Positions 706 through 46,473 of a stretch of DNA of 49,593 bases are shown here, one piece after another. The notes under the pieces are model-generated. The model ran no database searches, had not been told where the DNA came from, and saw only the letters and a list, made by a program, of their open reading frames with translations. Both the position numbers and the translations under genes were made by a program. Position 1 is the first letter of the stretch, and every line of letters starts with the position of its first letter. Source of the DNA: a candidate division WOR-3 bacterium (GTDB taxonomy: Bacteria > Hydrothermota > Tepidihabitantia > Tepidihabitantales > DTDR01); the NCBI GenBank assembly GCA_039801885.1, contig JBDRVN010000004.1:1-49593 (forward strand). The letters are read 5' to 3'.

Positions 706-733
706 TTGATATAATTAATAAAATAATTAAAAT
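706..733 (+). promoter_or_regulatory. Sigma70-type promoter, leaderless-type
   Basis: TTGATA 706-711, 16-nt spacer, TAAAAT 728-733, 5 nt, ATG 739. Confidence 0.5.
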
Positions 734-738
734 TAGGT

Positions 739-840
739 ATGAGTAATTTAAAAAGGAGGAAAACAATCAAATATATTCAAGAACCAAGTATCAGCGAAGG
801 GAAAGGAAATAAGAGCGAAAAGAAACTAAAAAAGAAATAA
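739..840 (+). CDS. Putative 33-aa basic peptide, not in the ORF track
   Basis: Read manually: MSNLKRRKTIKYIQEPSISEGKGNKSEKKLKKK, TAA at 838-840. Sits directly behind a promoter with the same geometry as the other leaderless genes. Confidence 0.4.
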   Translation: MSNLKRRKTIKYIQEPSISEGKGNKSEKKLKKK

Positions 841-862
841 AAAAGATATTGATTTTGAAATA

Positions 863-890
863 TTGACTTTTTACAAATTTTTGTTATAAT
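863..890 (+). promoter_or_regulatory. Sigma70-type promoter upstream of the structured RNA
   Basis: TTGACT 863-868, 16 nt, TATAAT 885-890. Confidence 0.7.
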
Positions 891-931
891 TTTTCCAAAT
901 GAGATTGATATTATTAAGTATAAATAACTTT

Positions 932-1064
932 GCTACGGAGAGAAGAAAGAGAAAGGTTCAGGTATCTTATTTGAAAATAACCTCCTTATTTTCGCCCAGA
1001 CTAATAGACCCTCCTTTAATTTGCCTGAATCTTACCACCCCACTTTCTTCTCTCCGTAGTTTTT
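932..1064 (+). ncRNA. Putative structured ncRNA with two CCUCC (anti-SD) hairpin loops; family unknown
   Basis: Perfect 17-bp stem 933-949/1043-1059; 12-bp stem 953-964/1022-1033 with two G-U pairs; 8-bp hairpin 973-980/986-993 with CCTCC loop; weaker hairpin 1005-1018 with CCCTCC loop; T5 tail 1060-1064. Confidence 0.65.
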
Positions 1065-2089
1065 CAATAAATTTCTATTAATTCTTCTTCTTTAATTATA
1101 AAATTTTTTTCGGGAAGGAAATTTTTTATTACCCAAAGGTTGGTTTTTAAATGATTGGTGATTTTATTAGTTTTATAACGACAAGAAGTATTGCTTAATA
1201 TAATAAAAATTGGCAATTGATCGGCAAGATGGTAATCCACAACACCTTTGCTATTATAATATTCTAAAAATTCCTTTACTGCTTCTTCGGCTACTTTTTC
1301 GGCAGGTTTACCAATCTCGCCCAGCGAAGAAAATCCGGCGACAATATTTTCAAATTGTGCCAAAATAAAAGTATAAGTACCTGGTGAAACACTTTCAACC
1401 TCTTCAATAAAGATTTCCGGATTAAATTTTTTTAAAAATTGATAGGCTTGGTTTACTTGTCTTTGGGCAATACTTTTATCCAATTTTCCTACTTTAGAAA
1501 TAATTTTTATTTTCTCTAATTTTCCTCTTTCTAAAAATTCGATAGTATTTTGCTCTCTTTTTTTGAAAGGTTCTACTTCTAAAATTACTTTTCCGCCACC
1601 GACCGGATAAAAACCATATCTTTCAATTTTTGCTTTGCAGAAAAAAGAAAACCTTTTTATAGTGGGAATAAGCACATCTTCTAAATAATCAAATATCGGA
1701 CTAAAAGGCACATGAGTTCCTCCTTCTAAAGTTATTTTAGAAGGTTTAGCAGCAAAGAATAAAACAGGTAAAATTGCCTGAATAACCAAAGTTATTGCAC
1801 CAGCACTTCTTTTTTCTTCGGCAACATTGAAATAATATTCACCACCAATAATATTTTTCGGAATAAATTTTAAAGATAGAGAATAAAGTTTGTTATTTTC
1901 TACAGTTGCTTCGCATATTTTAGCAGTGGCATTTATTCCGGTTAAGTGTTGGGGTAAAATACCTGGTTTTTTTCTTCCCTTTCTAATATTATTAATGAAA
2001 AAAGGTTTTTTAAGACAGGCTGATAAACTCAAAGATGTTCTTAAAATCTGGCCACCACCTTCACCATAGGAACCATCAATATTAATCAT
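1064..2089 (-). CDS. rtcA: RNA 3'-terminal phosphate cyclase
   Basis: [16 protein letters not shown]-terminus, [25 protein letters not shown] and the conserved catalytic His in ITNHLKTN. Confidence 0.95.
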
Positions 2090-2096
2090 AATTTTA

Positions 2097-2124
2097 ATTA
2101 AAATAAAATATAGACTTAAGTCAA
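2097..2124 (-). promoter_or_regulatory. rtcA promoter, leaderless-type
   Basis: Minus strand TTGACT 2124-2119, 16 nt, TTTAAT 2102-2097, 7 nt, ATG 2089; no SD. Confidence 0.5.
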
Positions 2125-2136
2125 ATTATTAAATTA

Positions 2137-2164
2137 TTGACTTATCATCTTCTCTGATTATAAT
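2137..2164 (+). promoter_or_regulatory. Promoter of the lipoprotein-rpsO-pnp unit
   Basis: TTGACT 2137-2142, 16 nt, TATAAT 2159-2164; GGAGG SD before ATG 2191. Confidence 0.7.
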
Positions 2165-2190
2165 TATAAACAAAAATATGGAGGAAGAAA

Positions 2191-2766
2191 ATGAAAAAAA
2201 TTCTTTTAGGGTTAGTAACGATCAGTATAATAATAATAAGTTGTAAGAAAGAAAAAAAAGTAACAGATATTATGCCCTTAAATCTTGGGAATTATTGGAA
2301 CTACCAAAGGTTGGTTGTTGAAGATGGCGATACTACTTTAAGCGATACCTTTAAAATGGAAGTGAATACTCAAAATAAGGATACTTTTTATCTTATTGGT
2401 TCCTTATTTACTTTTGAAGAATTACCAGAAAAACCCGAAGAAGAATCAATGAAAGTGATATTTTATGATAGTTTATTATTTACTTATACGGATGATGAAC
2501 CAGATACTCAATTGGTTTTACCTTTAAAAGAAGGAAAATCCTGGAAGGTAAACGAGGAATTTACTGCCGAAGTTATTAGTATCGAAGGAGTAAATATTGG
2601 TGATAAGCAATATTCCGATTGTTGGCGGATAAAATACCAAAATGAAGATGGCGATATTCAGAAAGAGCTTTGGTTTAAAGAAGAAATAGGAATTGTTAAA
2701 TTCCGAAAAGAAGAAGACGGAGAAATTACAATTTTAGAGTTAAAAGAATATAATTTAAACAGATGA
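2191..2766 (+). CDS. Putative lipoprotein
   Basis: [18 protein letters not shown] lipoprotein signal with Cys; SD GGAGG. Confidence 0.65.
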
Positions 2767-10473: not shown

Positions 10474-11771
10474 TAGTAAGGATTTTCGTATATAAGTATT
10501 GCCTTAAAGGTTAACAACAAAATTGAAAAATCTAACCAGAGGGACCAATTTTTTACATAATATTCGTCAAGCAGCAATCTTTCTTTTAATGTTAAATTAC
10601 CCCTGCCAGAAATTTGCCACAATCCGGTTAACCCTGGTTTTACTTTTGATATAATTGGCAAGTAATTTTCAATTAACTCTTTTTCTTCTAAAAGATAAGG
10701 TCGAGGACCAACCAAAGCCATCTCTCCTTTTAATACATTTATCAATTGAGGTAATTCATCTAAGCTAAACCTTCTTAAAAACTTGCCAAAGGGGGTGACT
10801 AATTGTTCACTTTTGGGAATTTTTAAATTTTTTTGCCATTCGTTAAAATATTCCTCTTTAAAAATTTCTTGATACTTCTGGGCTTCTATTTTCATTGTAC
10901 GAAATTTATAAATAGTAAAAACCTTGCCTTTTAACCCAATTCTTTTTTGTTTATAGAAAATCGGACCCGGCGAAGTTAATTTTATTAAAAAAGAAAATAA
11001 CAAAAATAAAGGTAAAGAAATTATAAAAATAATTAAAGATAAAAAATATTCTAAGGCAGTTTTAAGAAAAAGGTTGAAAGGTTTTAGAAGATTATATTTG
11101 GGCTTCAAGAACAAATAACGACCTATTTTTTCAATTTCAACATTTTGCGTTTGTAAAAGATTTAAATCAGCGACAATAAAAATTTCCGAAAAAGTTGATA
11201 TTAATTTTTCTTTAAAATATTTATCAGTGACAATTAAAATATCGGGCTGTTCTTTATTTCCAACTAATTGATAACCTAAGTATTGTTGACGGACAATTTC
11301 TTCTTTTAACTCATCGATTGATTCTTTTTCGCCGATGATTTTTATTTTTTTAATAAACAAGCCGATTTTTATCAAAACCAATTTAGTTAACCAACGAGCG
11401 AGAGGAAGTAAAATTAAAGAAAAAATAAAAGCTAACAAAATAACAATTCGGGAGAAACTATAAATTTGAGTAAGGTAAGCAACAAAAATAATAATTATTG
11501 TTCCTAACAAAAGTCCTTTCCATAATTTTTGAAGTTCATCGGCAAAACTAAATCTTTTGCTGTACAAATCATTAAAGAAAAATATTAAAAGATAGATAAA
11601 CAAAAAATAAAAACGATAATAAAAAACATTGAAAGACAAGGGAAAAGATAATTGAGTAAAAATCTTAGGAAGAACAACAGCTCTTATTATGTAACTCAAA
11701 AGATAAGAAAAGGATAAACTCAAAAAATCAGAAAGAGAAATAATAATACCTGTAAGCAAATTTTTTTTCAC
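10473..11771 (-). CDS. Polyprenyl-phosphate sugar phosphotransferase (WbaP/WcaJ family)
   Basis: N-terminal TM helices, FTIYKFRTM, RRFSLDELPQLINVLKGEMALVGPRP, KPGLTGLWQISGR; GTG start. Confidence 0.92.
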   Translation of the reverse strand: MKKNLLTGIIISLSDFLSLSFSYLLSYIIRAVVLPKIFTQLSFPLSFNVFYYRFYFLFIYLLIFFFNDLYSKRFSFADELQKLWKGLLLGTIIIIFVAYLTQIYSFSRIVILLAFIFSLILLPLARWLTKLVLIKIGLFIKKIKIIGEKESIDELKEEIVRQQYLGYQLVGNKEQPDILIVTDKYFKEKLISTFSEIFIVADLNLLQTQNVEIEKIGRYLFLKPKYNLLKPFNLFLKTALEYFLSLIIFIISLPLFLLFSFLIKLTSPGPIFYKQKRIGLKGKVFTIYKFRTMKIEAQKYQEIFKEEYFNEWQKNLKIPKSEQLVTPFGKFLRRFSLDELPQLINVLKGEMALVGPRPYLLEEKELIENYLPIISKVKPGLTGLWQISGRGNLTLKERLLLDEYYVKNWSLWLDFSILLLTFKAILIYENPY

Positions 11772-11777
11772 TTATTG

Positions 11778-11806
11778 ATTATAAATAGATTTTTAATTAA
11801 TGTCAA
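11778..11806 (-). promoter_or_regulatory. Leaderless-type promoter for the sugar transferase
   Basis: TTGACA 11806-11801, 17 nt, TATAAT 11783-11778, 6 nt, GTG 11771. Confidence 0.7.
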
Positions 11807-11808
11807 CA

Positions 11809-11836
11809 TTGATTTTTTAAAATTTTTAAATAAAAT
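11809..11836 (+). promoter_or_regulatory. Leaderless-type promoter for the SLBB gene
   Basis: TTGATT 11809-11814, 16 nt, TAAAAT 11831-11836, 6 nt, ATG 11843. Confidence 0.65.
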
Positions 11837-11842
11837 TGTCTA

Positions 11843-13117
11843 ATGGGTTGGTTTATTCTTTGTTTAATTATTAACCAGCAAGTATCTCCTTCTTCTTTTA
11901 TTCCTTCGCAAACTCAAATAGCACCAACTACAAGTATAACCGTAACCTCTTCATTAAGAGGTAATGAACTAATCGGAGTTGAAGCACCAATAATTTCCGA
12001 GGAGTATATTTTAATGCCCGGTGACAATCTATTGATAACAATAAAAGGCAAAGTAAATTATTCTTACACAAGTTGGGTTACTTATGAAGGAAAAATTCAA
12101 ATAATGCTTAAATCTAATCTTTTAGAAAGACTGGAGACCGTTGATGTAATTAGAATTAGTGGGTTGACAATAAAAGAAGCCCAGGACTCTTTAACTAAAA
12201 TATTTTTAAAATATTATAATGATATTTCTGTAAAACTTACTCTTATTGGGCTTCGTTCGGGAGTTGTTTTAGTGATGGGTGAAGTTTATTATCCAGGGAC
12301 TTATTACGCGATGCCAATAGAAAGAGTTTCTCAAATAATTGCTAAAGCTGGTGGGATTACTCCTAATGGTTCAAAAATAGATATAAAACTAATAAGAGAG
12401 AAAGATACTTTAGAAGTGGATATTGAAAAATTTGAAAACGAAGGAGATATCACTGCTAACCCTTTTGTTCAATCGGGAGATAAAATTTATGTTCCGCCAA
12501 TGACTAACAGTATTCAAATCAAAGGAGCAATTTTTGGAAGAGGAGAATATCGTTTACGTACTTCCGTTACCACTGTTGAAAGAGAACGGATAAGTGAAGG
12601 AAGATATGAAATAAGAAATAATGAGAGAATAAAAGAGGTGTTGAAAAGGGCTGGCGGAGTTACTCCCTGGGCTGACTTGGATAATGCTTATATAGAAAGA
12701 AAAATTCCCGGTGCTTCCAAAATTAAAATTTCCCTTAATTTAAGAAAATTGTTATTAGAAAACGACCTTTCTTATAATTTAGAATTAAAAAATGGCGACA
12801 TAATTTATATACCAGAAATTGAAGATAATATTTATGTAAATGGTGAAGTAGTTAATCCTCAGGCAATAAAATTTCAAAATAATTTAACAGTTCCTCAATA
12901 TATTGCGATGGCCGGAGGATATACCAAATATGCAGATGGTAAAAAAGTGTATGTAATAAGAAAAGGTAAAAAAATTAGTCAGATTAAAAATCTTGAACTT
13001 GCCCCCGGAGATATTATTTATGTTCCTCGAATACCAATAAAATTTTGGGAAGATTATTTACAGATTCTTTCTACACTTTTTCCAATTGTTTTAACAATTT
13101 TGTATACTACTAAGTAA
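11843..13117 (+). CDS. SLBB-domain polysaccharide export protein (Wza-like)
   Basis: YILMPGDNL; repeated VxGEVxxPG...IAxAGG SLBB units; LAPGDIIYVP. Confidence 0.8.
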   Translation: MGWFILCLIINQQVSPSSFIPSQTQIAPTTSITVTSSLRGNELIGVEAPIISEEYILMPGDNLLITIKGKVNYSYTSWVTYEGKIQIMLKSNLLERLETVDVIRISGLTIKEAQDSLTKIFLKYYNDISVKLTLIGLRSGVVLVMGEVYYPGTYYAMPIERVSQIIAKAGGITPNGSKIDIKLIREKDTLEVDIEKFENEGDITANPFVQSGDKIYVPPMTNSIQIKGAIFGRGEYRLRTSVTTVERERISEGRYEIRNNERIKEVLKRAGGVTPWADLDNAYIERKIPGASKIKISLNLRKLLLENDLSYNLELKNGDIIYIPEIEDNIYVNGEVVNPQAIKFQNNLTVPQYIAMAGGYTKYADGKKVYVIRKGKKISQIKNLELAPGDIIYVPRIPIKFWEDYLQILSTLFPIVLTILYTTK

Positions 13118-13118: not shown

Positions 13119-13679
13119 TTATTTCACTCTTTCAATATATCTTTTTGTTTCGGTACTAACTCTTACGATATCATTTATTTTAATAAATTGCGGAACCATG
13201 ATTTCTAATCCATTTTCTAATTTAGCAGTTTTGTAAGCAGCATCAGTTTCACTTTTTACTCCAGAACCAGTTTCTATCACTCTTAGATCAACGGTTTTCG
13301 GCATAATAAAATCAATCGGTTTTCCCTCATAAAATTCTACTTTAATTTTAAATCCCTCTTTTAAGAAAATAGCAAAATCACCGATGATTTTTTTAGATAA
13401 GGGAAATTGTTCGTAAGTTTCTGGATGCATAAAATAGAAATTTTCACCATCATTATAGATATATTCCATTTCAAAGACATCAAGATGGATATTTTGTAAT
13501 TTTTCATCGGGACTGAATCTTTTTTCAGTAAAGGAACCTGTTTGAAGATTTTTTAATTTTAAGTGAACTAGACTACCAAATTTTGCTGTTCCTGCTTTAT
13601 ATTCACCGGTTATAACCTTATAGAATTCTCCTGCTATTTTTAAAACCATCCCCTCTTTTACTTCACTAGCCAGAATCAT
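13119..13679 (-). CDS. efp: Elongation factor P family protein with atypical tip loop
   Basis: YIYNDGENFYFMHPETYEQ, KLENGLEIMVPQFI; loop reads AGTAKFG instead of PGKG; strong SD. Confidence 0.9.
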   Translation of the reverse strand: MILASEVKEGMVLKIAGEFYKVITGEYKAGTAKFGSLVHLKLKNLQTGSFTEKRFSPDEKLQNIHLDVFEMEYIYNDGENFYFMHPETYEQFPLSKKIIGDFAIFLKEGFKIKVEFYEGKPIDFIMPKTVDLRVIETGSGVKSETDAAYKTAKLENGLEIMVPQFIKINDIVRVSTETKRYIERVK

Positions 13680-13731
13680 CTTCTCCTCCTTTTTAACAAT
13701 TGTAAAAATTTACTATTTTATTTCCAAATAA

Positions 13732-17500: not shown

Positions 17501-17785
17501 ATTACTATATTCGGGCCAGTTTCCATCATTTTCAATAATTAATTTCACCTCGCAATAATTTAATGGCGGAACTTCTTTGGTTCCGCCAAAAATTAACTCT
17601 TCAATTTTACTGCAACGTAGCAAGGAAAGAGTTTGCTCTCCTAATACCCAACGGAAAGCATCGAAAATATTTGTCTTTCCACAACCATTTGGTCCTAAAA
17701 TTGCCGTTATCCCTTGAGAAAATAAGATACGAGTTTTCTCCGGAAAAGATTTGAAACCGAAGATATCTAATTCTTTAATTCTCAT
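14591..17785 (-). CDS. smc: Chromosome segregation protein SMC
   Basis: FGFKSF, Walker A GPNGCGKTN, coiled coils around a hinge, signature LSDGE, Walker B FLDEVDAPLD; next to ftsY. Confidence 0.93.
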   Translation of the reverse strand: MRIKELDIFGFKSFPEKTRILFSQGITAILGPNGCGKTNIFDAFRWVLGEQTLSLLRCSKIEELIFGGTKEVPPLNYCEVKLIIENDGNWPEYSNEIEIKRCYYRSGESEYFINRQPCRLKDIEDLFSKVGSYVYSIFDITQMRRIIQGEAKELFFEAANLKEYFENRREIERKLINLNQELENLEVIIREKQRIVRNLQRQVKVYNEYLQLKEKEKEYQRKLLIKEIKNLEEKREKLKKEISEYSEKISEKEKEIAILVEEINKTQHQIEELKNKQEMVYHTYQGLLKEMNSLEREKIIYEEKNNFLLKEFAEKKKQKESLAFSLQKLAEETNLLKEDLVKINLEKETLETKIKEQQKEISEKEIIITELEKEIKNLWETLKNNFEENKKEESFLTKINHEINKIEEEIKEKKRKKEEIEKELREIEEKITKKEQLIAQLKEKYLSFTKKEKEEKLKLVRTQLGEDFLGMVKDFLEVEPGYESLVNQLLKRYLNFYVIRNLSFLFSNNFHNLLNYINDGFILSSFNITHENPIDLEKKEPLPLKNIIKFKENCPPFIKGKIAECYLVNNLTEAYYFYLKNPQFTYITKKGEIISKEGVVNLQKVKDWEVPPQELLKIYAEIYHLNNLSEIYSKKQEIIFQTEKEVEERIEELNSFLNKRKELEEKIDKLKEKEIFLREQLKNKEENLSNQRQEFKSKNEEMQILINKLFRLKENYYQKEQKIYEKEIEEEKIKKELATITEKIESANQEFLESEKEKNKLFKRITELKEEIAIIEKQLPEKMINIFLGEIQEKDKKINEYQKEILLIKDKIANNQIELASLEKELEINMNNLGEEFTKEFSYQEFSCLTTIDYEKEIEIIRKKIIEIGNVNYLAAEDYNYEKNELLKLLGQKKDILQGINNLKKSVEELEKKAKEIFHNIFQNVREEFKKTFVEIFTEGEADIILTEPENPFESQIVITAKPKGKNPKRLEHLSDGEKALLALSLLFSFYRIKKTPFLFLDEVDAPLDDINIKRFIKFLKELAQETQIIIITHNRLTLENADVLLGVTNPQPGVSKVFTIKIN

Positions 17786-17794
17786 TTAAAAATA

Positions 17795-29176: not shown

Positions 29177-30610
29177 ATGAAGAAAATTTTAGAATCGGTA
29201 ATTTTATTATTAATTTTAGTATCTTTATTTTCAGTGGCTTTTGCTCAATGGGAGCCGGATGTACGACTAACATGGAATGATAGTTCTTCGACCACAAGTT
29301 TTAATAATGTCCGTAACATTGCTGCTGGATCCAATGGAACTTTACATGTAGTGTGGGTGGATTGTCGAACAGGAGTTAGTCAAATCTATTATAAACGTTC
29401 AACCGATCGAGGAACGACTTGGTCTCCCGATACCAATCTGACCGATGCCAGTGGATTGAAAGCAGATCCTAACCTCGCAGTAGTTGGTGAAACGCTCCAT
29501 CTTGTCTGGGAGGACCACCGTTGGGGTTATCCCGGAGCAATTATGTATCGAAAGTCAACAGATAATGGCATAACTTGGTTACCAGAACAATGTATCAATG
29601 CCAATAACTGGAACTCTCGTAATCCTGCGGTTGCTGCCGAGGGAAGTATAGTTCATGTTGCTTGGGCTAGTGATTCAGTAGGTAGAGAAATCTATTACAT
29701 TCGCTCAACCGACAATGGCGTAACCTGGACTGACCGCCGTCGGTTGACATTTGATATGCAGGAATCTTGGTATCCCTCAATTGCCGCTTCGGGTCAGTTT
29801 GTGCATCTTGCTTGGCGAGACTGGCGTGATCACAGTTTTGAAATATATTATCTCCGTTCTACTGACCGAGGCGCAACATGGGATAGCATACCCATACGCA
29901 TATCTGGTGATCTAACAACTGGTTCTTATAATCCCAGTTTATGTGTTTCAGATTCATACGTGCATATTGTATGGTTTGACACTCGTCACACTCCTTTTGA
30001 ATTGTACTATCGCCATTCCTCAAATAACGGAAGAACTTGGGATATGCCCGAAATGCGACTTACCGAAGACTCAAGTGGCTCTTACAATCCGACAATCTGT
30101 GCTGATGGTCCGAATATTCATGTAGTCTGGGAAGCGTTACTTGGCACATCTGACATCTATCATAAAATGTCCACCAACTATGGAATAAGTTGGGGACCAG
30201 AGACCCGACTTACTAATGACCAGTTTTACTCGGTTTTCCCATCTGCGGCATTACTTGATTCCGGTATCCATGTTGTCTGGACTGATTTCCGAGATAATGA
30301 ATACGGCGAAATCTACTACAAAAGAAATCTGAGAGGTAATCAGGTAGCGATTGCTAAGTCTTCCGAACCAATGTTTAATTATCCACACTTATCCGCCACC
30401 ATTGTCGGTGGTGTTCTATTTTTACCAAGGATATCAAACGTCAAGGAGAATACTTCTTGTTTTCTAATTAATATCACTGGCCAAAAAGTTAAAGAACTTT
30501 TACCTGGTCCAAACGATATACGACAATTAACTTCAGGAATCTATTTCATCTTTCAGCAGAATAGAAAAGGTAATTGGCAGTTGGAAAAGAAAATAGTCAT
30601 TCAGCACTAA
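29177..30610 (+). CDS. Secreted BNR/Asp-box repeat (sialidase-like propeller) protein with T9SS-like C-terminal domain
   Basis: Signal peptide ending AFA-Q; six SxDxGxTW-type boxes (STDRGTTW, STDNGITW, STDNGVTW, STDRGATW, SSNNGRTW, STNYGISW); tail NITGQKVKEL...SGIYF. Confidence 0.8.
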   Translation: MKKILESVILLLILVSLFSVAFAQWEPDVRLTWNDSSSTTSFNNVRNIAAGSNGTLHVVWVDCRTGVSQIYYKRSTDRGTTWSPDTNLTDASGLKADPNLAVVGETLHLVWEDHRWGYPGAIMYRKSTDNGITWLPEQCINANNWNSRNPAVAAEGSIVHVAWASDSVGREIYYIRSTDNGVTWTDRRRLTFDMQESWYPSIAASGQFVHLAWRDWRDHSFEIYYLRSTDRGATWDSIPIRISGDLTTGSYNPSLCVSDSYVHIVWFDTRHTPFELYYRHSSNNGRTWDMPEMRLTEDSSGSYNPTICADGPNIHVVWEALLGTSDIYHKMSTNYGISWGPETRLTNDQFYSVFPSAALLDSGIHVVWTDFRDNEYGEIYYKRNLRGNQVAIAKSSEPMFNYPHLSATIVGGVLFLPRISNVKENTSCFLINITGQKVKELLPGPNDIRQLTSGIYFIFQQNRKGNWQLEKKIVIQH

Positions 30611-30777: not shown

Positions 30778-31481
30778 TTATTTAATTAACTCCTTTAATT
30801 TATCAAAATAAGGATAATTTAATTCTTGGAGAAGAAAAAGAAAATACTCAATATTTTCTCCTCTTTCCTTTGCTTTTTTAATCTTTTCTGCAAGCAATTC
30901 CGGTTCTAAGATATTTAATAATTCATCAATTTTCTGATAACCTATTTCTTTTAAAGCCACCAATAATGAATACCTGCCTATTTTCTAAATTTTTTATAAT
31001 TTCACAAACCTCTTCTCTTTCAACAATATAACCTTTCTCAAAATCAATCCATAAAGGACCTTGCCAACGAAAGAAATGAGGCTCATTATATTTTTCGTCA
31101 CCCCTTTTAAGATATTTTTCTATTTTTATTAATCCCAATCTTTTTAATTTTGAAGCAATAAATTCCTTTTCCATAATGGATGCTCTCTTTTTTAAATCCA
31201 TAATAATAAAAAATAAAAATGCCATTAATATTATTAAAATAATGCTATATATCCAATTTGAAAAAAATTTCCCAATTTCTATCCTCCAAAAAGATAGTAT
31301 AAACATTATTATACTTACTATCATACCTATTATACCTACAACAATAGTCCAGTAGGTACTTTTTTCTATTTTTTTTCTTATAAGATAGGTAATTTCCTAA
31401 GACTATCAAAAGGACGATAAGGAAAAATATAGAAATACCTGTAGGTATTAGATTAATAATAAAAACTATTAAATTACCCAT
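30778..31481 (-). pseudogene. Frameshifted, internally deleted membrane-anchored protein gene, probable P-loop/STAND NTPase remnant
   Basis: Three overlapping minus-strand frames (31245-31484, 30926-31324, 30778-30963). An A8 run (31369-31376) breaks a TM-encoding frame. IVEREEV..IIKNLENRQVFIIGG stops where a Walker A would begin. Confidence 0.6.
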
Positions 31482-31488
31482 CAAGTTA

Positions 31489-31516
31489 ATTTTATAAAAA
31501 TTAACCTATTTGTCAA
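31489..31516 (-). promoter_or_regulatory. Leaderless-type promoter of the pseudogene
   Basis: TTGACA 31516-31511, 16 nt, TAAAAT 31494-31489, 7 nt, ATG 31481. Confidence 0.65.
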
Positions 31517-31521: not shown

Positions 31522-31549
31522 TTGACATTATTTATTTTTTTGTTAATAT
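31522..31549 (+). promoter_or_regulatory. Leaderless-type promoter with extended -10
   Basis: TTGACA 31522-31527, TG at 31541-31542, TAATAT 31544-31549, 6 nt, ATG 31556. Confidence 0.7.
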
Positions 31550-31555
31550 TTATCT

Positions 31556-32245
31556 ATGATATTTATTTTATCTTTAATAATTTTTAATCAAACCTATCTT
31601 ATCGATAACCCTTCACCAAGTTTTTTAAGCCATGGTGAATATTTAATTGGATTTAGACTACAAGGAAATAATGGGATAATGGCAAATTTTGGGATTGGAC
31701 TTTTTGATAGGTTAAATATGGGTGTCTCTTATTCGGGTGATAGTATTTTAGGTAGTGGTAAGCCAACCTTTCCCCAAAAAAGAGGACCAGAATTCCAAAT
31801 CCGTTTAAAAATTGTTGGCGAAGAGAGTTTTGTTTTTCCCGATATAATTCTTGGTTTTGATACCCAAGGATTTGGTAGTTATGATTCTGCTAAAAACGGT
31901 TATGCCGTTCCCGAAAAGACGTTTTATCTTTTATTAGGCAAAACAATTGATTTTACAAACACCAATATTTCCGGTGGAGTTAATTATCGGGATAAAGTTA
32001 ATTTCTTTTTATCAATAAGCCAATTATTACCAAGTGATTTTAATTTGATATTAGAATATTCTTCTTCTTTTTATGATAAAATAAGAGATATTAAAAAATA
32101 TGGCTTTTTAAATACAGGAATTGCTTGGAATTTTAGTGAGCAGGTTCGTTTTCTTTTTGCTTTAAGAGAGATTATTAAAAATCACGAAAATAATAATTGC
32201 CATTTAAATCGGATTGTTTATATAACTTTTCAATCCGGTTTTTAA
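31556..32245 (+). CDS. Hypothetical outer-membrane protein (YjbH-like)
   Basis: LIDNPSPSFLSHGEY, GLFDRLNMGVSY; beta-strand pattern ending in Phe. Confidence 0.45.
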   Translation: MIFILSLIIFNQTYLIDNPSPSFLSHGEYLIGFRLQGNNGIMANFGIGLFDRLNMGVSYSGDSILGSGKPTFPQKRGPEFQIRLKIVGEESFVFPDIILGFDTQGFGSYDSAKNGYAVPEKTFYLLLGKTIDFTNTNISGGVNYRDKVNFFLSISQLLPSDFNLILEYSSSFYDKIRDIKKYGFLNTGIAWNFSEQVRFLFALREIIKNHENNNCHLNRIVYITFQSGF

Positions 32246-32270: not shown

Positions 32271-32618
32271 ATGGGTTTTTATATTATTATCCGTTCTTAT
32301 TTTAGTGCCGCTCACAGATTAAAAGATTTATTTAATGACGAAGAAATTCATGGTCATAATTATTTGGTAGAAGTTTTTATCAAAGAAGAAGATATTGAAA
32401 AAAAGGGTTATCAATTTGATTTTCGGGAAGTGGAAAATTATTTGAGAAGTATTCTACCGGAGCATAAATTTTTAAATGAAATATTTGACTTTGTGCCAAC
32501 TTGTGAGAATGTCGCAAAGTATCTATTTTATAAAGTAAAAGAAAGATATCCAATTGTTAAAATTAGAGTGTGGGAGAATGAAAAATATGCTTGTGAATAT
32601 GAAGAAAGCTCTTCTTGA
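32271..32618 (+). CDS. 6-pyruvoyl-tetrahydropterin synthase/QueD family protein, PTPS-III-type motif
   Basis: FSAAH, EEIHGHNY, DFREV, HKFLNE, PTCEN, VRVWE-like KIRVWE. Confidence 0.85.
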   Translation: MGFYIIIRSYFSAAHRLKDLFNDEEIHGHNYLVEVFIKEEDIEKKGYQFDFREVENYLRSILPEHKFLNEIFDFVPTCENVAKYLFYKVKERYPIVKIRVWENEKYACEYEESSS

Positions 32619-32642
32619 CTTTTCAAAAATTTTTATTAAAAT
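32615..32642 (+). promoter_or_regulatory. S10 operon promoter
   Basis: TTGACT 32615-32620, 16 nt, TAAAAT 32637-32642; 24 nt to ATG 32667, no SD. Confidence 0.65.
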
Positions 32643-32666
32643 TATTAACTAAACTTTTTATAAATT

Positions 32667-32996
32667 ATGAAGGAATTTGAAGAGTTAAAGGGAGAAAAGG
32701 TAAGAATTAAGTTGAAGAGTTATGATTATCGGATATTGGATCAATCAACAAAGCAAATTGTTGATGTTATTAAACAATTGGGTGGTAAAGTTTCCGGACC
32801 AATACCTTTGCCAACGAAACGTTCGCTTTTTACTGTTTTACGTTCGACTTTTATTGATAAAAAATCAAGGGAACAGTTTGAATTACGGATTCATAAAAGA
32901 TTGATTGAGATTGATAATGCGACACCGGATATGATTAATGCCTTAATTCGTTTAGAAGTGCCAGCTGGTGTTGATGTGGAGATTAAAATAACTTAA
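32667..32996 (+). CDS. rpsJ: 30S ribosomal protein S10
   Basis: [29 protein letters not shown]. Confidence 0.98.
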
Positions 32997-39688: not shown

Positions 39689-40369
39689 TTATTTTAATTC
39701 CCTTATGATAACAATTGGTGTCATTTCGTTACTTTGACCAGCCGGATTATCTTTTAATATTTGTTCTATTAATTTTTTATCTACATTATTAGAAGAAGCA
39801 ATAACCCAACTGCCGCCAATATCATTAACATCTACAATAGCGACTGGTAAAGATAAAGAAGCATTTATTTTCTTAACAACTTCTTCGGGGTTTTGGGGAC
39901 CCATTATTACACATTCGTAATATTCTTTTATTCCTGATGTATAAGGAGCATCAATCATTGCTGCCTGTTTACCGGCAATCCGATAGAAATCGCCTCTTCT
40001 ACCCCAAAATTTAGTAATCCCCCCAATAATGGCTGCTATCAATATTCTTATTTTTCCACATTCTCTGATAGCGCATTCCATACTATAAGGATTTCTTAAA
40101 CCAGTTCCGTAAGGAACTTTTCTAACAAATCGCCAAAGAAATTTTGCCAATAAAGAAACTTTTATTTCCTTTATTGGTATTGCCCTTCCCTGGCTACAAG
40201 AAACCGCGCTTTCACTTATCGTAATTATATCGTTTTTTTGTAAAATTCCTTTAGTGTTTTCTTTAATTATTTGAATTAAATCATCTCCTTTTTTAATTAA
40301 TCCAGTTTTTATCGGTATTCTTAAATATCTTTTACCGTTGATTTCAATTATTGGCTCTTTTTTTCTCAT
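39689..40369 (-). CDS. CofE-like (F420-0:gamma-glutamyl ligase family) protein
   Basis: RIPIKTGLI, ISESAVSCSQGR, AAMID, IVDVNDIG, DNPAGQSNEMTPIVIIR. Confidence 0.75.
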   Translation of the reverse strand: MRKKEPIIEINGKRYLRIPIKTGLIKKGDDLIQIIKENTKGILQKNDIITISESAVSCSQGRAIPIKEIKVSLLAKFLWRFVRKVPYGTGLRNPYSMECAIRECGKIRILIAAIIGGITKFWGRRGDFYRIAGKQAAMIDAPYTSGIKEYYECVIMGPQNPEEVVKKINASLSLPVAIVDVNDIGGSWVIASSNNVDKKLIEQILKDNPAGQSNEMTPIVIIRELK

Positions 40370-40408
40370 CTTAAAAGTTATAACTTATGTTTTATAATAT
40401 TTAAAAAT

Positions 40409-40437
40409 TTGAAAATTTCAAGAAAAATCTTTATAAT
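40409..40437 (+). promoter_or_regulatory. lipB promoter, leaderless-type
   Basis: TTGAAA 40409-40414 (the track's TTG start is this -35 box), 17 nt, TATAAT 40432-40437, 7 nt, ATG 40445. Confidence 0.7.
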
Positions 40438-40444
40438 TAAACCT

Positions 40445-41065
40445 ATGGAAATTATTGATTTAGATAAAAAAAATTTTAAAGAAACCTATCAATTACAAAA
40501 ATTTTATATTGAGAAAAGAAAAAATAATGAGATAGATGATTTATTAATTTTAGTAGAACATCCGCCAGTTATCACACTTGGTCGAAATGGCAAAATAGAA
40601 AACCTTTTGATTTCTAAAGAAAAATTAAAAGAGTTAAATATAGAATTTTATCAAATTGAAAGGGGAGGAGATATAACAATTCATAATTATGGTCAATTAG
40701 TTGGTTATTTTATTTTTTACTTAAAAAATGGTTTTTGGGATATGAAAATTTTTATTGATAAAATTGAAGATTTGATTATCCAACTTTTAAAATCTTTTAA
40801 TATTAATGCCGAAAAGAAAGAAAAACTTATTGGAGTTTTTGTAAAGGATAAAAAAATTTGTTCCATTGGAATGGCAATTGATAAAAATATTACTTTCCAC
40901 GGATTTGCTTTGAATGTAAATAATGATTTAAGTTATTTTCAGTTAATAAATCCCTGCGGGATAAAAGATTTAAAAATGACATCCATAAAAGAGGAGTTAA
41001 AAAAAGAGATCACAATCGAAGAAGTAAAAAAAGAATTGGCAAAAATTTTTAAAAATGGCTTTTGA
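40445..41065 (+). CDS. lipB: Lipoyl(octanoyl) transferase
   Basis: LVEHPPVITLGR, RGGDITIH..GQLVGY, KICSIG, HGFALNV, INPCG; start reassigned from 40409. Confidence 0.93.
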   Translation: MEIIDLDKKNFKETYQLQKFYIEKRKNNEIDDLLILVEHPPVITLGRNGKIENLLISKEKLKELNIEFYQIERGGDITIHNYGQLVGYFIFYLKNGFWDMKIFIDKIEDLIIQLLKSFNINAEKKEKLIGVFVKDKKICSIGMAIDKNITFHGFALNVNNDLSYFQLINPCGIKDLKMTSIKEELKKEITIEEVKKELAKIFKNGF

Positions 41066-44712: not shown

Positions 44713-44784
44713 CTGGGGGACAGGGATTCGAACCCCGACCATCTGATCCAGAGTCAGATGTCCTGCCAGTTAGACGATCCCCCA
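44713..44784 (-). tRNA. tRNA-Gln(CUG)
   Basis: TGGGGGA/TCCCCCA acceptor stem, TCTGA-CTCTGGA-TCAGA anticodon arm, GGTTCGAATCC T-loop; CCA not encoded. Confidence 0.96.
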
Positions 44785-44793
44785 ATTATATAA

Positions 44794-44821
44794 ATTGTAA
44801 ATAAATAAATAGAATTTTCAA
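44794..44821 (-). promoter_or_regulatory. tRNA-Gln promoter
   Basis: TTGAAA 44821-44816, 16 nt, TACAAT 44799-44794. Confidence 0.55.
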
Positions 44822-44842
44822 GAATTTGTTACTATACCAAAT

Positions 44843-44870
44843 TTGACATTTATTTTTTAAATTGTATAAT
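44843..44870 (+). promoter_or_regulatory. Consensus promoter of the GIY-YIG gene
   Basis: TTGACA 44843-44848, 16 nt, TATAAT 44865-44870; AAGGAGG SD before ATG 44900. Confidence 0.75.
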
Positions 44871-44899
44871 ATTGTAAAAATATTAAAAAGGAGGAAAAA

Positions 44900-45304
44900 A
44901 TGGCCAGGCGATGGATTCCATCAATACCTACTTCTTATGCTTGGAAAGGAGCTTATGCAACCGAATGGGAAGGTTTTGAGAAAGCGAGAATTCGTCAATG
45001 GCGAATAATTAAAGAATGGAAATTTAGAAGAATAAACAAAGACGATTATGGAATTGATGATATTAAGAATGTGTGTGGAATTTATGTATTTCTTAATAAA
45101 GATAATTATGTATTATATATTGGCAGCTCCCGGAATCTACAAAGAAGAATTAAACAGACATACGAGAATTTTGCCAAATTTCAAAAAGTTTACATATCTA
45201 AAATTACTGCTTGTCAAGTAATAAATAAACGTGAAGCAGAAATTGGGGAAAGTGATCTTCTTTGGTATTATATACCACCATGGAATACTACTTTTCATAA
45301 ATAG
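44900..45304 (+). CDS. Stand-alone GIY-YIG nuclease
   Basis: GIYVF...LYIGSSRNLQRR, later E..E..LL...PPWN. Confidence 0.8.
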   Translation: MARRWIPSIPTSYAWKGAYATEWEGFEKARIRQWRIIKEWKFRRINKDDYGIDDIKNVCGIYVFLNKDNYVLYIGSSRNLQRRIKQTYENFAKFQKVYISKITACQVINKREAEIGESDLLWYYIPPWNTTFHK

Positions 45305-45317
45305 TTTAAAGATTTTC

Positions 45318-45346
45318 TTGTTTTTTAATATTTATTTAGTTAAAAT
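45318..45346 (+). promoter_or_regulatory. Leaderless-type promoter
   Basis: TTGTTT 45318-45323, 17 nt, TAAAAT 45341-45346, 5 nt, ATG 45352. Confidence 0.5.
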
Positions 45347-45351
45347 TTATT

Positions 45352-46473
45352 ATGTTAAATTCTTTTTTTTATCGTAAGGAATTTCCAATTTTAGAAAAAT
45401 ACATTTATCTTAATAATGCTGCTTGTGGTCCAATGCCTCTACGAACCAAAAAGGCGATAGAGGAGTGGCTTGATAAGTATGTTTATGAAGGAAATATTGA
45501 GTGGGAAGAATGTGAGACACTATCAGAAGAAACAAGAGAAATTGTTGCTAATTTTTTAAATGCTAATAAAGAAGAAATATGTTTTAAAAGAAATACAAGC
45601 GAAGGAATTTTAACGGTTCTAAGTCTTATTAAGTTTAATAAAAATGATAATATAATTGTTGCAAAAGACAATTTTCCAGCGAATTTTTTGCCCTATCAAA
45701 ATTTTAATAAAGTTGAAAAGAAATATGTTTCAATTTTAAAAGGTGATATTTTAAAACAAATTAAAAAAGTATTTAATAGGAAAACGAGATTAATTGCTTT
45801 GGATTGGATACATTTTCTTTCTGGTTATCAAATTCCTTTAAAAGAAATAAGCGAATTTTGTAAAAATTATGATTGTTTTTTATTGATTGATGGAATTCAA
45901 GGAATTGGAGCATTAGAAATTGATTTAAAAGAGATAGATATTGATTTTCTTGTTTTTGGCGGCGGTAAATGGATTTTTCTACCACAAGGAATTGGAGTGC
46001 TATATATTAAAAAAGAGGTTTTAACAAATCTAAAAATAAATTTTGTTGGTTGGCTCGGATACGAATGGAAGGAGTTTAATAAAATATTCACCAAAAAAAG
46101 ATTGAAAAAAAGTGCTGATAAATTAGAAGAGGGAACAAAAAATTATTTAGGGATTGTTGGTTTAAAAGAAAATATAGGATTTTTAAACCGAATTGGGATT
46201 AAAAATATTCAAAATTATCTTTTATTTTTAACTAATTATCTAATTGAGCAATTAAAAGATTTAAATTTTGATATTTTAGAAAGAAATAAAGGAAGTGGTA
46301 TTGTTGCTTGTAAAAGAAAAGATAAAGAAAGCGGAATTCTTTATCAAAAGATTTTAGAAAAAGGATTTAAAATTTCTTTAAGAGAAGATTATTTAAGAAT
46401 ATCACCCCATTTTTATAATACGAAGGAAGATATCGATAATTTAGTTGAAACATTAGCTTATCTAATAAAATGA
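45352..46473 (+). CDS. Class V PLP-dependent aminotransferase-like enzyme
   Basis: IYLNNAACGP, IDGIQGIG, FGGGKW (PLP Lys), LRISPHFYN; no desulfurase Cys loop seen. Confidence 0.85.
   Translation: MLNSFFYRKEFPILEKYIYLNNAACGPMPLRTKKAIEEWLDKYVYEGNIEWEECETLSEETREIVANFLNANKEEICFKRNTSEGILTVLSLIKFNKNDNIIVAKDNFPANFLPYQNFNKVEKKYVSILKGDILKQIKKVFNRKTRLIALDWIHFLSGYQIPLKEISEFCKNYDCFLLIDGIQGIGALEIDLKEIDIDFLVFGGGKWIFLPQGIGVLYIKKEVLTNLKINFVGWLGYEWKEFNKIFTKKRLKKSADKLEEGTKNYLGIVGLKENIGFLNRIGIKNIQNYLLFLTNYLIEQLKDLNFDILERNKGSGIVACKRKDKESGILYQKILEKGFKISLREDYLRISPHFYNTKEDIDNLVETLAYLIK

What the first reader, a model, noticed from the sequence alone, without database searches (positions are those of the whole stretch)
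706..45354. Most transcription units appear to be leaderless
Seen: a TTGnnn-16/17-TAnnnT-type promoter with the -10 box 5-9 nt before the start codon and no SD at rtcA (2089), the sugar transferase (GTG 11771), SLBB (11843), smc (17785), 25855, HTH (28261), 29177, the pseudogene (31481), 31556, lipB (40445), 45352 and the 739 peptide. That places the transcription start on or within about 3 nt of the start codon. Leadered SD starts are the minority (2191, efp, rpmF, 44900). Established: heavy leaderless usage is known in Actinobacteria, Deinococcus-Thermus and archaea. Inference: an unusually high leaderless fraction for an FCB-like lineage. It also corrects gene starts, for example lipB, where the track's TTG is the -35 box.
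Basis: partly seen in the sequence, partly recalled or inferred. Interest (0 to 1): 0.7.

Follow-up and report, generated by a model that had tools for sequence, protein, structure and literature searches.

The report
Promoters fused to start codons (leaderless genes)
In this hot-spring WOR-3 bacterium about 60% of the transcription units have a near-consensus promoter sitting 5-9 bases before the start codon, so their mRNAs should begin at the AUG and be translated without a ribosome-binding site; this is a known mechanism, seen here in a lineage where the papers searched do not report it.

Summary
Eleven of the twelve listed starts carry TTGnnn-16/17-TAnnnT with 5-9 nt between the -10 hexamer and the start codon, and none has a Shine-Dalgarno (SD) sequence. 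rtcA is the exception: its best -10 is TTTAAT.

This is not an AT-richness artefact:
- 11 of 49 annotated starts have the motif, against 18 of 1499 other ATG/GTG (p = 2e-10).
- Dinucleotide shuffles give 0.3 hits, against 11 observed.
- AT-rich control DNA shows no such peak.

Promoter-to-start distances are bimodal: 5-9 nt (leaderless), or 19-29 nt (a short leader, mostly with AGGAGG). About 11-12 of 18 transcription units are of the leaderless type.

The layout is kept in syntenic relatives down to 62% SMC identity. It recurs in six non-syntenic WOR-3 loci of 35-44% GC (22 of 51 promoter-to-ORF distances at 4-10 nt, p = 1.5e-8).

The organism belongs to candidate division WOR-3 (NCBI: Caldifarciminota). 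Its promoters are the canonical sigma-70 type, not the Bacteroidetes type.

No transcription start has been mapped; public RNA data were too sparse. No searched paper links "leaderless" with WOR-3.

Verdict: real, a new member of a known kind, moderately interesting, and useful for calling gene starts.

The parts
706..741 (+). Leaderless-type promoter plus start of a 33-aa Lys-rich ORF: -35 TTGATA 706-711, -10 TAAAAT 728-733, ATG 739 (d=5)
   Evidence: The ORF has no Pfam hit, so the coding status of the peptide is unproven.
2087..2124 (-). rtcA probable leaderless promoter: -35 TTGACT 2124-2119, -10 TTTAAT 2102-2097 (no A at the second position), ATG 2089 (d=7)
   Evidence: The RTC domain starts at residue 8.
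11769..11806 (-). Sugar transferase (Bac_transf): -35 TTGACA 11806-11801, -10 TATAAT 11783-11778, GTG 11771 (d=6)
   Evidence: The same codon is ATG in relatives L002 and L017, and the promoter is conserved.
11809..11845 (+). SLBB/polysaccharide export gene: -35 TTGATT 11809-11814, -10 TAAAAT 11831-11836, ATG 11843 (d=6). It lies back to back with the 11771 promoter in a 71-nt spacer.
17783..17822 (-). smc: -35 TTGACA 17822-17817, -10 TATAAT 17800-17795, ATG 17785 (d=9)
   Evidence: The promoter is conserved in L001, L002, L015 and L017 with d=8-10. The N-terminus MRIKELDIFGFKSF is canonical for SMC.
25819..25857 (+). Por_Secre_tail protein: -35 TTGACA 25819-25824, -10 TATAAT 25842-25847, ATG 25855 (d=7)
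   Evidence: A signal-peptide-like N-terminus starts at the Met.
28227..28263 (+). HTH regulator: -35 TTGAAA 28227-28232, -10 TATAAT 28249-28254, ATG 28261 (d=6). The GTG at 28258 is too close to the -10 to be the start.
   Evidence: The arrangement is identical in L015.
29143..29179 (+). BNR-repeat protein: -35 TTGACA 29143-29148, -10 TAAAAT 29166-29171, ATG 29177 (d=5)
   Evidence: A classical signal peptide starts at the Met.
31479..31516 (-). 79-aa membrane ORF (apparently frameshifted into 30926-31324): -35 TTGACA 31516-31511, -10 TAAAAT 31494-31489, ATG 31481 (d=7)
31522..31558 (+). 229-aa protein: -35 TTGACA 31522-31527, -10 TAATAT 31544-31549, ATG 31556 (d=6)
   Evidence: In L017 the same gene has d=16, so its leaderless state is not conserved.
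40409..40447 (+). lipB: -35 TTGAAA 40409-40414 (this is the TTG of the longest ORF), -10 TATAAT 40432-40437, ATG 40445 (d=7)
   Evidence: The window's own entry and nine of the ten next-closest full-length homologues are 206 aa; L027 keeps the promoter with d=8.
45318..45354 (+). Class-V aminotransferase: weak -35 TTGTTT 45318-45323, -10 TAAAAT 45341-45346, ATG 45352 (d=5)
   Evidence: L027 keeps a TATAAT at d=5 with a weak -35.
2137..2193 (+). Leadered unit with SD: TTGACT-16-TATAAT, d=26, GGAGG 7 nt before ATG 2191
13677..13727 (-). efp, leadered with SD: TTGGAA-17-TACAAT, d=19, AAGGAGG
   Evidence: Also leadered with an SD-like purine run (GGGGG / AGGAGGAGG) in L015 and L017.
17845..17898 (+). 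rpmF, leadered with SD: TTGACA-16-TATAAT, d=23, AAGGAG
   Evidence: Also leadered with SD in L015 and L017.
32615..32669 (+). rpsJ (S10 operon), short leader without SD: TTGACT-16-TAAAAT, d=24
   Evidence: d=17 in L017.
40367..40421 (-). F420-ligase-like gene, short leader without SD: TTGAAA-16-TATTAT, d=24. Its -35 overlaps the lipB -35 in the palindrome TTGAAAATTTCAA.
44843..44902 (+). GIY-YIG gene, leadered with SD: TTGACA-16-TATAAT, d=29, AAGGAGG

Best explanation
The window comes from a low-GC (30%) bacterium of candidate division WOR-3 (Caldifarciminota). In it, most first genes of transcription units are expressed as leaderless mRNAs.

Shown:
- A canonical sigma-70-type promoter (TTGACA-like -35, a 16-17 nt spacer, TATAAT-like -10) lies so that only 5-9 nt separate the -10 hexamer from the ATG, or in one case a GTG.
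- No SD precedes these starts.

Inferred:
- RNA polymerase starts 6-10 nt downstream of the -10 hexamer and prefers a purine. The A of the start codon falls in that range at every one of these sites. The transcript should therefore begin at the AUG, or at most 1-3 nt upstream.
- Such an mRNA cannot pair with the anti-SD sequence. It is presumably bound at its 5'-terminal AUG by a 70S ribosome or initiator-tRNA complex, as shown experimentally in Mycobacterium and Deinococcus.

The remaining units have very short leaders, about 12-23 nt, most of them carrying a strong AGGAGG. Operon-internal genes use an SD in about a third of cases. Otherwise they rely on close coupling or on A/T-rich upstream sequence.

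The same design recurs across divergent WOR-3 genomes, so it is a trait of the lineage rather than of this locus.
For: 1. Motif geometry: 11 starts have the full motif at d=5-9.
2. Enrichment:
- 11 of 49 annotated starts against 18 of 1499 other ATG/GTG, p = 2e-10.
- Shuffles give a mean of 0.31 hits and a maximum of 3 in 2000.
- TAnnnT alone at d=5-9: 12 of 18 first genes against 4 of 31 internal genes.
3. Bimodal spacing: for promoters scoring at least 10 of 12, d is either 5-9 or 23-37 in the window.
4. SD is mutually exclusive with the abutting promoter: 0 of 12 leaderless-type starts, 4 of 6 leadered first genes, 10 of 31 internal genes, 14% background.
5. Starts validated:
- Pfam domains begin at residues 5-18.
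- The SMC N-terminus is canonical.
- No SD-led in-frame alternative start lies downstream.
- The window's own LipB entry and nine of the ten next-closest full-length homologues are 206 aa.
- GTG 11771 is ATG at the same position in L002 and L017.
6. No room for another promoter: divergent pairs are separated by only 71-75 nt, about the length of two back-to-back promoters.
7. Conservation: the smc, SLBB, Bac_transf, HTH and lipB promoters are kept in relatives at 62-86% SMC identity. New abutting promoters appear on newly inserted or rearranged genes in L017 and L027.
8. Lineage breadth: in six non-syntenic WOR-3 loci (133 kb, 35-44% GC), 22 of 51 promoter-to-ORF distances lie at d=4-10, p = 1.5e-8. 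In five of them (L019, L021, L023, L024, L025) the individually inspected d=6-8 hits coincide with called gene starts; L028 was read at its called starts directly.
9. Controls lack the peak:
- E. coli: 0 of 2
- Bacillus pBtoxis (31% GC): 0 of 4
- Low-GC Actinomycetota loci: 1 of 12
- 80 mixed metagenome loci: 18 of 105
- WOR-3 against this background: Fisher p = 1.6e-4
Against: - No transcription start site has been mapped. The only RNA runs that hold this sequence gave a few short internal contigs and no 5' ends.
- The sample is small: 18 transcription units in the window, and about 130 kb from other WOR-3 genomes.
- rtcA and 45352 have imperfect boxes.
- The 229-aa gene is not leaderless in L017 (d=16).
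- One start is GTG, which E. coli-type leaderless translation tolerates poorly, although mycobacteria use it.
- The 739 peptide and the 31481 ORF may not be functional genes.
Confidence: 0.82

Rival explanations
1. Chance in AT-rich DNA. TAnnnT and TTG are frequent at 30% GC, so apparent promoters next to ATGs would be coincidental.
For: TAnnnT occurs at 3% of all positions. There are 209 loose TTGnnn-16..18-TAnnnT matches in the window, most of them inside genes.
Against: - Enrichment at annotated starts is 19-fold (p = 2e-10).
- Shuffles never exceed 3 hits, against 11 observed.
- Nine of the eleven hits match at least 10 of 12 consensus positions.
- AT-rich controls show no peak: pBtoxis 0 of 4, low-GC Actinomycetota 1 of 12.
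- The same peak appears in WOR-3 loci of 39-44% GC.
Confidence: 0.02
2. The promoters are real but the true start codons lie further downstream, so the mRNAs have ordinary leaders that overlap the annotated 5' coding ends.
For: Gene starts in MAGs are predictions. Two of the ORFs (739 and 31481) have no homologue support.
Against: - No downstream in-frame start carries an SD, apart from codon 42 of the 229-aa gene, and using it would delete that protein's hydrophobic N-terminus.
- Pfam domains, the SMC N-terminal motif and the signal peptides all begin right at the proposed Met.
- Homologue lengths agree.
- A GTG-to-ATG change sits at the same codon in relatives.
Confidence: 0.04
3. Transcription starts further upstream, and the A/T-rich TAnnnT element near the start codon acts as a translational signal (an unstructured, S1-binding, Bacteroidetes-like non-SD site) rather than as a -10 box.
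For: Most operon-internal genes here lack an SD and have A/T-rich upstream sequence (21 of 31). This is reminiscent of the group B FCB genomes (PMC6028130).
Against: - The element comes with a TTGACA-like box at exactly 16-17 nt. That spacing is a property of RNA polymerase, not of the ribosome.
- The element is rare before internal genes (4 of 31 against 12 of 18).
- Divergent spacers of 71-75 nt leave no room for other promoters.
- Leadered units use the same two boxes, only 14-20 nt further away.
Confidence: 0.07
4. The layout is a local peculiarity of this window, for example a variable island of recently acquired genes, and not a genome-wide or lineage-wide habit.
For: Four of the leaderless-type units (25855, 28261, 29177 and 31481) lie in a segment that is absent from relative L017. 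The window holds only 18 units.
Against: - Core genes (smc, lipB, SLBB, the sugar transferase, the aminotransferase) show the layout too.
- It recurs at unrelated genes in other WOR-3 genomes: adk, glnA, a mechanosensitive-channel gene, and genes for TPR, patatin and NFACT proteins.
- The pooled WOR-3 test gives p = 1.5e-8.
Confidence: 0.05

Closest known systems
Leaderless-rich bacteria: GeneMarkS-2 'group C', mainly Actinobacteria (M. tuberculosis, Streptomyces) and Deinococcus-Thermus (D. deserti, D. radiodurans)
   Same: - The -10 box lies 6-8 nt from the start codon of the first gene in an operon, with no SD there. SD is used on other genes.
- The fraction of leaderless operons is comparable or higher: 25-50% predicted for group C and 60% measured in D. 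deserti (PMC6028130, PMC4007540, PMC12340547), against 11-12 of 18 here.
   Different: - Those genomes are high-GC. Their leaderless promoters show mainly TAnnnT. Here the genome is 30% GC and the promoters carry near-consensus -35 and -10 boxes.
- In code-11 genomes almost all of group C is high-GC (bioRxiv 10.1101/2022.07.25.500264).
- SD use on internal genes is low here (10 of 31).
- Their leaderless status rests on mapped transcription starts. This one does not.
Aquificae with leaderless genes (Aquifex aeolicus; Zheng et al. 2011, PMC3160421)
   Same: These are thermophiles of non-high-GC composition with a TAtaaT-type signal about 10 nt upstream of starts. About 21-32% of their genes are predicted to be leaderless.
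   Different: It is a different phylum. That estimate is per gene and comes from a -10-only model. No comparison of -35 boxes was made.
Low-GC Mollicutes of group C (Mycoplasma, genetic code 4)
   Same: Low GC, with 30-60% of transcripts predicted to be leaderless and a TATAAT-type box near the start (bioRxiv 10.1101/2022.07.25.500264).
   Different: They use code 4, whereas TGA is a stop here (17 of 52 genes). They are reduced-genome parasites of the Bacillota lineage.
Bacteroidota / FCB 'group B' initiation: non-SD A-rich sites, with -33 TTTG and -7 TAnnTTTG promoters
   Same: Many internal genes lack an SD and have A/T-rich upstream sequence. WOR-3 has traditionally been discussed alongside the FCB lineages.
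   Different: - The promoters here are TTGACA/TATAAT. TAnnTTTG is not enriched (2 of 18 units, about the number expected by chance).
- Strong AGGAGG SDs exist.
- First genes are of the leaderless type rather than leadered without SD.

Membership tests
Bacterial leaderless genes / GeneMarkS-2 group C genome type | The transcription start coincides with the start codon (5' UTR of 0 to about 5 nt) | not testable with these tools
   There are no usable RNA 5' ends. The RNA runs holding this sequence gave only a few short internal contigs. The feature is inferred from promoter geometry only.
Bacterial leaderless genes / GeneMarkS-2 group C genome type | A Pribnow (-10) box sharply localised 6-8 nt from the start codon of first genes in operons (the '-10' position), as described for group C in PMC6028130 | tested here: met
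   - d=5-9 at 11 starts, with modes at 5 and 6.
- 12 of 18 first genes against 4 of 31 internal genes have TAnnnT there.
- p = 2e-10 against other ATG/GTG.
Bacterial leaderless genes / GeneMarkS-2 group C genome type | No SD upstream of the leaderless starts, and a start codon of AUG (or GUG) | tested here: met
   0 of 12 have an SD of 4 nt or more. There are 11 ATG and 1 GTG, and the GTG is ATG in two relatives.
Bacterial leaderless genes / GeneMarkS-2 group C genome type | Other genes (leadered first genes and internal genes) carry SD-type ribosome-binding sites | tested here: inconclusive
   4 of 6 leadered first genes have a strong AGGAGG-type SD. Only 10 of 31 internal genes do, against a 14% background. 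This is a mixed picture with a large non-SD class.
Bacterial leaderless genes / GeneMarkS-2 group C genome type | A substantial share of operons (about 25% or more) is leaderless across the genome | tested here: inconclusive
   The criterion is met in the window (11-12 of 18 units). It is supported in 133 kb of other WOR-3 loci (22 of 51 promoter-to-ORF distances). No whole genome could be analysed.
Bacteroidota-type (group B) promoters and initiation | A -7 TAnnTTTG / -33 TTTG promoter consensus, and non-SD A-rich sites on leadered mRNAs | tested here: not met
   TAnnTTTG lies within 120 nt upstream of only 2 of 18 units, about the chance number. The promoters are TTGACA-16/17-TATAAT.
Candidate division WOR-3 (Caldifarciminota) | The closest homologues of housekeeping proteins belong to genomes labelled WOR-3 | tested here: met
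   - SMC is 86% identical to a MAG titled candidate division WOR-3 (L001); a second close MAG at 81% (L002) is titled only 'uncultured bacterium'.
- The named hits among the closest SMC and LipB relatives are WOR-3, and one LipB from an NCBI WOR-3 MAG is 100% identical.
- Taxonomy.
- No 16S or marker-set phylogeny was run.

The most novel reading that the evidence does not exclude
Leaderless expression is the majority mode for first genes throughout the phylum WOR-3 (Caldifarciminota). That would make it the first low-GC, standard-code bacterial phylum of this type. Full consensus -35/-10 promoters are fused to AUGs, and the intergenic DNA is trimmed to the minimum: 71-75 nt holds two divergent promoters, and leadered mRNAs have only about 12-23 nt of 5' UTR. 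The habit may reach neighbouring lineages; a locus with a Zixibacteria-like SMC (L045) shows 3 of 3 promoter-to-ORF distances at d=4-10. It may also be linked to thermophily or to genome streamlining.
Probability: 0.5. Interest if true: 0.55.

Novelty: new member of a known kind. Interest (0 to 1): 0.42.

Why it matters
1. Annotation. In WOR-3 genomes the correct start of a first gene can be read off the promoter. Longest-ORF calls are wrong where the upstream TTG is the -35 box (lipB) or where a caller over-extends into the neighbouring gene (the SLBB gene in L023).

2. Biology. The finding adds a low-GC, largely uncultured, thermophile-rich phylum to the short list of bacteria that rely heavily on leaderless translation. 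That list now mixes very different base compositions, which bears on whether the mode is ancestral or has evolved repeatedly.

3. Practice. It supplies ready-made strong promoter and start-codon cassettes, and a simple rule for expression design in WOR-3. The phylum now has a cultured member, strain sy37 (PMC12285271), on which transcription starts can be mapped.

Tried and rejected
- Direct RNA evidence. Three run searches found one sediment metatranscriptome with 6-16% of the words, and one hot-spring metatranscriptome from the same study as the DNA runs with 0%. Laying them on 25000-44999 gave 24 short internal contigs or spurious 20-nt matches, and no 5' ends.
- The one genome-contig scan, run with a single SMC protein, found only two close relatives.
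- The metagenome-contig scan with a WOR-3 SMC alignment used universal Walker motifs. It returned mostly non-WOR-3 loci at 22-30% identity. I kept them only as a mixed background control.
- E. coli is a weak control, because it has few near-consensus promoters. An AT-rich Bacillus plasmid was added for that reason (the first accession failed; it was obtained).
- 'Leaderless tRNAs' was considered and dropped. tRNA-Gln has only about 2-3 nt of predicted leader, but two tRNA-Ser genes in L025 have about 55 nt.
- 7402 (GT4) and 32271 (queD) were considered as first genes and reclassified as operon-internal. The gaps are 26 and 25 nt, and no promoter is present.
- A Bacteroidetes-type promoter motif was looked for and not found.

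Full report
**What the window is.** The 49.6-kb window is 30% GC. It encodes ordinary housekeeping genes: rtcA, pnp, efp, smc, rpmF-plsX, the pyrimidine genes, the S10/spc ribosomal-protein operon and lipB. Its SMC protein is 86% identical to a MAG titled candidate division WOR-3 and 81% identical to a second MAG titled only 'uncultured bacterium'. The named database hits among the closest SMC and LipB relatives are WOR-3, including a 100% identical LipB from an NCBI WOR-3 MAG. DNA runs holding the sequence are hot-spring metagenomes. NCBI now names the phylum Caldifarciminota. TGA is used as a stop codon in 17 of 52 genes, so the code is standard.

**Checking the observation.** I printed the upstream sequence of every gene. 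I then listed every TTGnnn-16..18-TAnnnT on both strands and verified exact coordinates. Below, d is the number of bases between the -10 hexamer and the start codon.

| Start | -35 | Spacer | -10 | d |
|---|---|---|---|---|
| 739 | TTGATA | 16 | TAAAAT | 5 |
| 11771(-), GTG | TTGACA | 17 | TATAAT | 6 |
| 11843 | TTGATT | 16 | TAAAAT | 6 |
| 17785(-), smc | TTGACA | 16 | TATAAT | 9 |
| 25855 | TTGACA | 17 | TATAAT | 7 |
| 28261 | TTGAAA | 16 | TATAAT | 6 |
| 29177 | TTGACA | 17 | TAAAAT | 5 |
| 31481(-) | TTGACA | 16 | TAAAAT | 7 |
| 31556 | TTGACA | 16 | TAATAT | 6 |
| 40445, lipB | TTGAAA | 17 | TATAAT | 7 |
| 45352 | TTGTTT | 17 | TAAAAT | 5 |

rtcA (2089) is the exception. No TAnnnT sits at a legal spacing there, and its best reading is TTGACT-16-TTTAAT-7-ATG. 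I call it probable.

Two further units have a short leader without an SD: rpsJ and 40369(-), both d=24.

**Is it more than chance?**
- Among annotated starts, 11 of 49 have the motif at d=5-9. Among all other ATG/GTG on both strands, 18 of 1499 do (Fisher p = 2.3e-10).
- Nine of the eleven hits match at least 10 of 12 consensus positions. Only two non-annotated sites do.
- In 2000 dinucleotide-preserving shuffles of the upstream regions of the candidate first genes, the mean was 0.31 hits and the maximum 3.
- From the promoter side, the distance from a strong promoter to the next long-ORF start is bimodal. In the window it is 5-9 or 23-37 nt, with nothing between.
- The same pipeline finds no 4-10 nt peak in 50 kb of E. 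coli (0 of 2), in 50 kb of the 31%-GC Bacillus plasmid pBtoxis (0 of 4) or in 79 kb of 36%-GC Actinomycetota loci (1 of 12). In 1.16 Mb of mixed metagenomic SMC loci the share is 18 of 105.

**Are the start codons right?**
- SMC begins MRIKELDIFGFKSF, the canonical N-terminus.
- Pfam domains begin at residue 13 (LipB), 7-10 (HTH), 8 (RtcA) and 18 (aminotransferase).
- The proteins starting at 25855 and 29177 begin with signal peptides, and those at 11843 and 31556 begin with hydrophobic N-termini, right at the Met.
- No in-frame downstream start has an SD. The one exception is codon 42 of the 229-aa gene, and using it would delete that protein's N-terminus.
- The window's own LipB entry and nine of the ten next-closest full-length homologues are 206 aa, which is the ATG 40445 start; one is called at 214 aa.
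- The GTG at 11771 is an ATG at the identical position in relatives L002 and L017.

**Anatomy.**
- SD and an abutting promoter are mutually exclusive. An SD of 4 nt or more is present at 0 of 12 leaderless-type starts, 4 of 6 leadered first genes and 10 of 31 internal genes, against a 14% background.
- Divergent pairs are separated by 71 nt (11771/11843), 74 nt (31481/31556) and 75 nt (40369/lipB). That is just the length of two back-to-back promoters. Their -35 boxes touch or overlap (TGTCAACATTGATT, TTGTCAATCAATTTGACA, TTGAAAATTTCAA). No room is left for any other promoter.
- From my own knowledge of E. coli RNA polymerase, start sites are chosen 6-10 nt downstream of the -10 hexamer, with a preference for position 7-8 and for a purine. 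With d=5-9, the A of the ATG sits at positions 6-10. Every site can therefore start exactly on the AUG, or 1-3 nt upstream for smc.

**Relatives.**
- Syntenic WOR-3 genomes at 86, 81, 75 and 62% SMC identity (L001, L002, L015 and L017) keep the -35 and -10 boxes of smc with d=8-10, and of SLBB and the sugar transferase with d=6-7. L015 also keeps the HTH promoter. efp and rpmF stay leadered with an SD-like purine run. L027 keeps the lipB promoter.
- New abutting promoters appear where gene order differs. In L017 a 323-aa gene that is operon-internal in the window has one. In L027 an inserted CBM9 gene has one.
- The trait is not perfectly conserved gene by gene. The 229-aa gene has d=16 in L017.
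- Non-syntenic WOR-3 loci of 35-44% GC show the same design at unrelated genes: a Mur-ligase-like gene, alr, adk, glnA, mechanosensitive-channel genes, and genes for TPR, patatin and NFACT proteins.
- Pooled over six such loci (133 kb), 22 of 51 promoter-to-ORF distances fall at 4-10 nt (binomial p = 1.5e-8). Against the mixed background the Fisher p is 1.6e-4.
- In L023 the abutting promoter indicates a start 48 codons inside the called SLBB gene. That start removes an implausible 118-nt overlap with the neighbouring gene.

**Mechanism.**
- Shown: promoter geometry, absence of an SD, valid start codons, conservation and specificity to the lineage.
- Inferred: transcription starts on or within 3 nt of the AUG, and translation starts by direct recognition of the 5'-terminal AUG. 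This is the mechanism established for leaderless mRNAs in Mycobacterium and Deinococcus (PMC3898074, PMC4007540, PMC9031893).
- I could not obtain transcription-start data. The two metatranscriptomes that touch this sequence yield only short internal contigs.

**Comparison with what is known.**
[quoted passage not shown] The group is concentrated in Actinobacteria and Deinococcus-Thermus, whereas about 90% of FCB genomes are the non-SD 'group B' type (PMC6028130).
- Zheng et al. found leaderless genes in 1 of 37 Bacteroidetes/Chlorobi genomes. Their per-gene estimates were 39% in Deinococcus-Thermus and 21-32% in two Aquificae (PMC3160421).
- Among standard-code genomes, group C is almost entirely high-GC. 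Low-GC group C genomes are Mycoplasma with code 4 (bioRxiv 10.1101/2022.07.25.500264).
- This WOR-3 bacterium is therefore an unusual host for a known mechanism. It is low-GC and uses the standard code. Its promoters have near-consensus -35 and -10 boxes, not just TAnnnT. About 60% of its units are leaderless in this sample. A large class of internal genes is non-SD, which recalls FCB genomes.
- Its promoters are not Bacteroidetes-type; TAnnTTTG is not enriched.
- No paper in the searched library combines 'leaderless' with WOR-3. A WOR-3 genomics paper that I term-searched contains none of 'promoter', 'transcript', 'FCB', 'GC content' or 'genome size'. The WOR-3 isolation paper's abstract and section list likewise show no treatment of promoters or transcription.

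**Verdict.** It is a new member of a known kind, of moderate interest. Its immediate practical use is in calling gene starts in WOR-3 genomes. The decisive experiment, mapping 5' ends, is now feasible on the cultured strain sy37 (PMC12285271).

Noticed in passing
window 863-1085 (+): A near-consensus promoter (TTGACT-16-TATAAT, 863-890) lies 8 nt before the ATG at 899. That ATG opens a 60-aa ORF with no Pfam hit, and the ORF runs into the 3' end of rtcA. The transcript would fold into a long hairpin closed by a perfect 18-bp stem at 932-949 / 1043-1060 (MFE -47.9 kcal/mol, z = -5.7). Rfam gives only sub-threshold generic-hairpin hits. This is a candidate structured non-coding RNA next to the RNA-repair gene rtcA.
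   Followed up: partly
window 44712-44821 (-): The tRNA-Gln(CUG) promoter (TTGAAA-16-TACAAT, 44821-44794) leaves only 9 nt before the mature 5' end, so the predicted 5' leader is about 2-3 nt. This is not general in the phylum: two tRNA-Ser genes in L025 sit about 55 nt downstream of their promoter.
   Followed up: partly
window 25855-31500, compared with L017 1503-2112: This segment carries the Por_Secre_tail protein, the HTH regulator, the BNR protein and the frameshifted small membrane ORFs (31245-31484 and 30926-31324). It is absent from relative L017, where the pyrE-like gene is directly followed by the 229-aa gene. It is a variable island. Each of its genes (with the frameshifted membrane ORFs counted as one unit) has its own leaderless-type promoter.
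   Followed up: partly
window 11772-11842, 31482-31555, 40370-40444: Divergent gene pairs are separated by only 71-75 nt, about the length of two back-to-back promoters. Their -35 boxes touch or overlap; for example, the palindrome TTGAAAATTTCAA serves both lipB and 40369.
   Followed up: yes
window 32615-32669; L017 upstream of 409: The S10 ribosomal-protein operon has a consensus-like promoter but a short leader of about 11-18 nt with no SD (d=24 in the window, d=17 in L017). It is neither leaderless nor SD-led. How it is translated is unexplained.
   Followed up: partly
window, operon-internal starts (e.g. 33630, 34244, 34531, 35364, 22847): Only 10 of 31 internal genes have an SD of 4 nt or more. 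Many internal starts are instead preceded by A/T-rich sequence ending in (A)ATT-ATG, often with the upstream stop codon adjacent or overlapping. This suggests coupling or non-SD initiation.
   Followed up: partly
L045 (metagenome contig Ga0164310_10000352): This 36%-GC locus has an SMC closest to the Zixibacteria references, not to WOR-3. It shows 3 of 3 strong promoter-to-ORF distances at 4-10 nt. The habit may therefore extend beyond WOR-3.
   Followed up: no
L023 623-767 (-): The called SLBB/Poly_export gene starts at 767 and overlaps the upstream gene by 118 nt. A TTGACA-18-TACAAT promoter 8 nt before the ATG at 623 indicates a shorter, non-overlapping leaderless start. This is a second example of a gene-start correction, alongside lipB.
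   Followed up: partly
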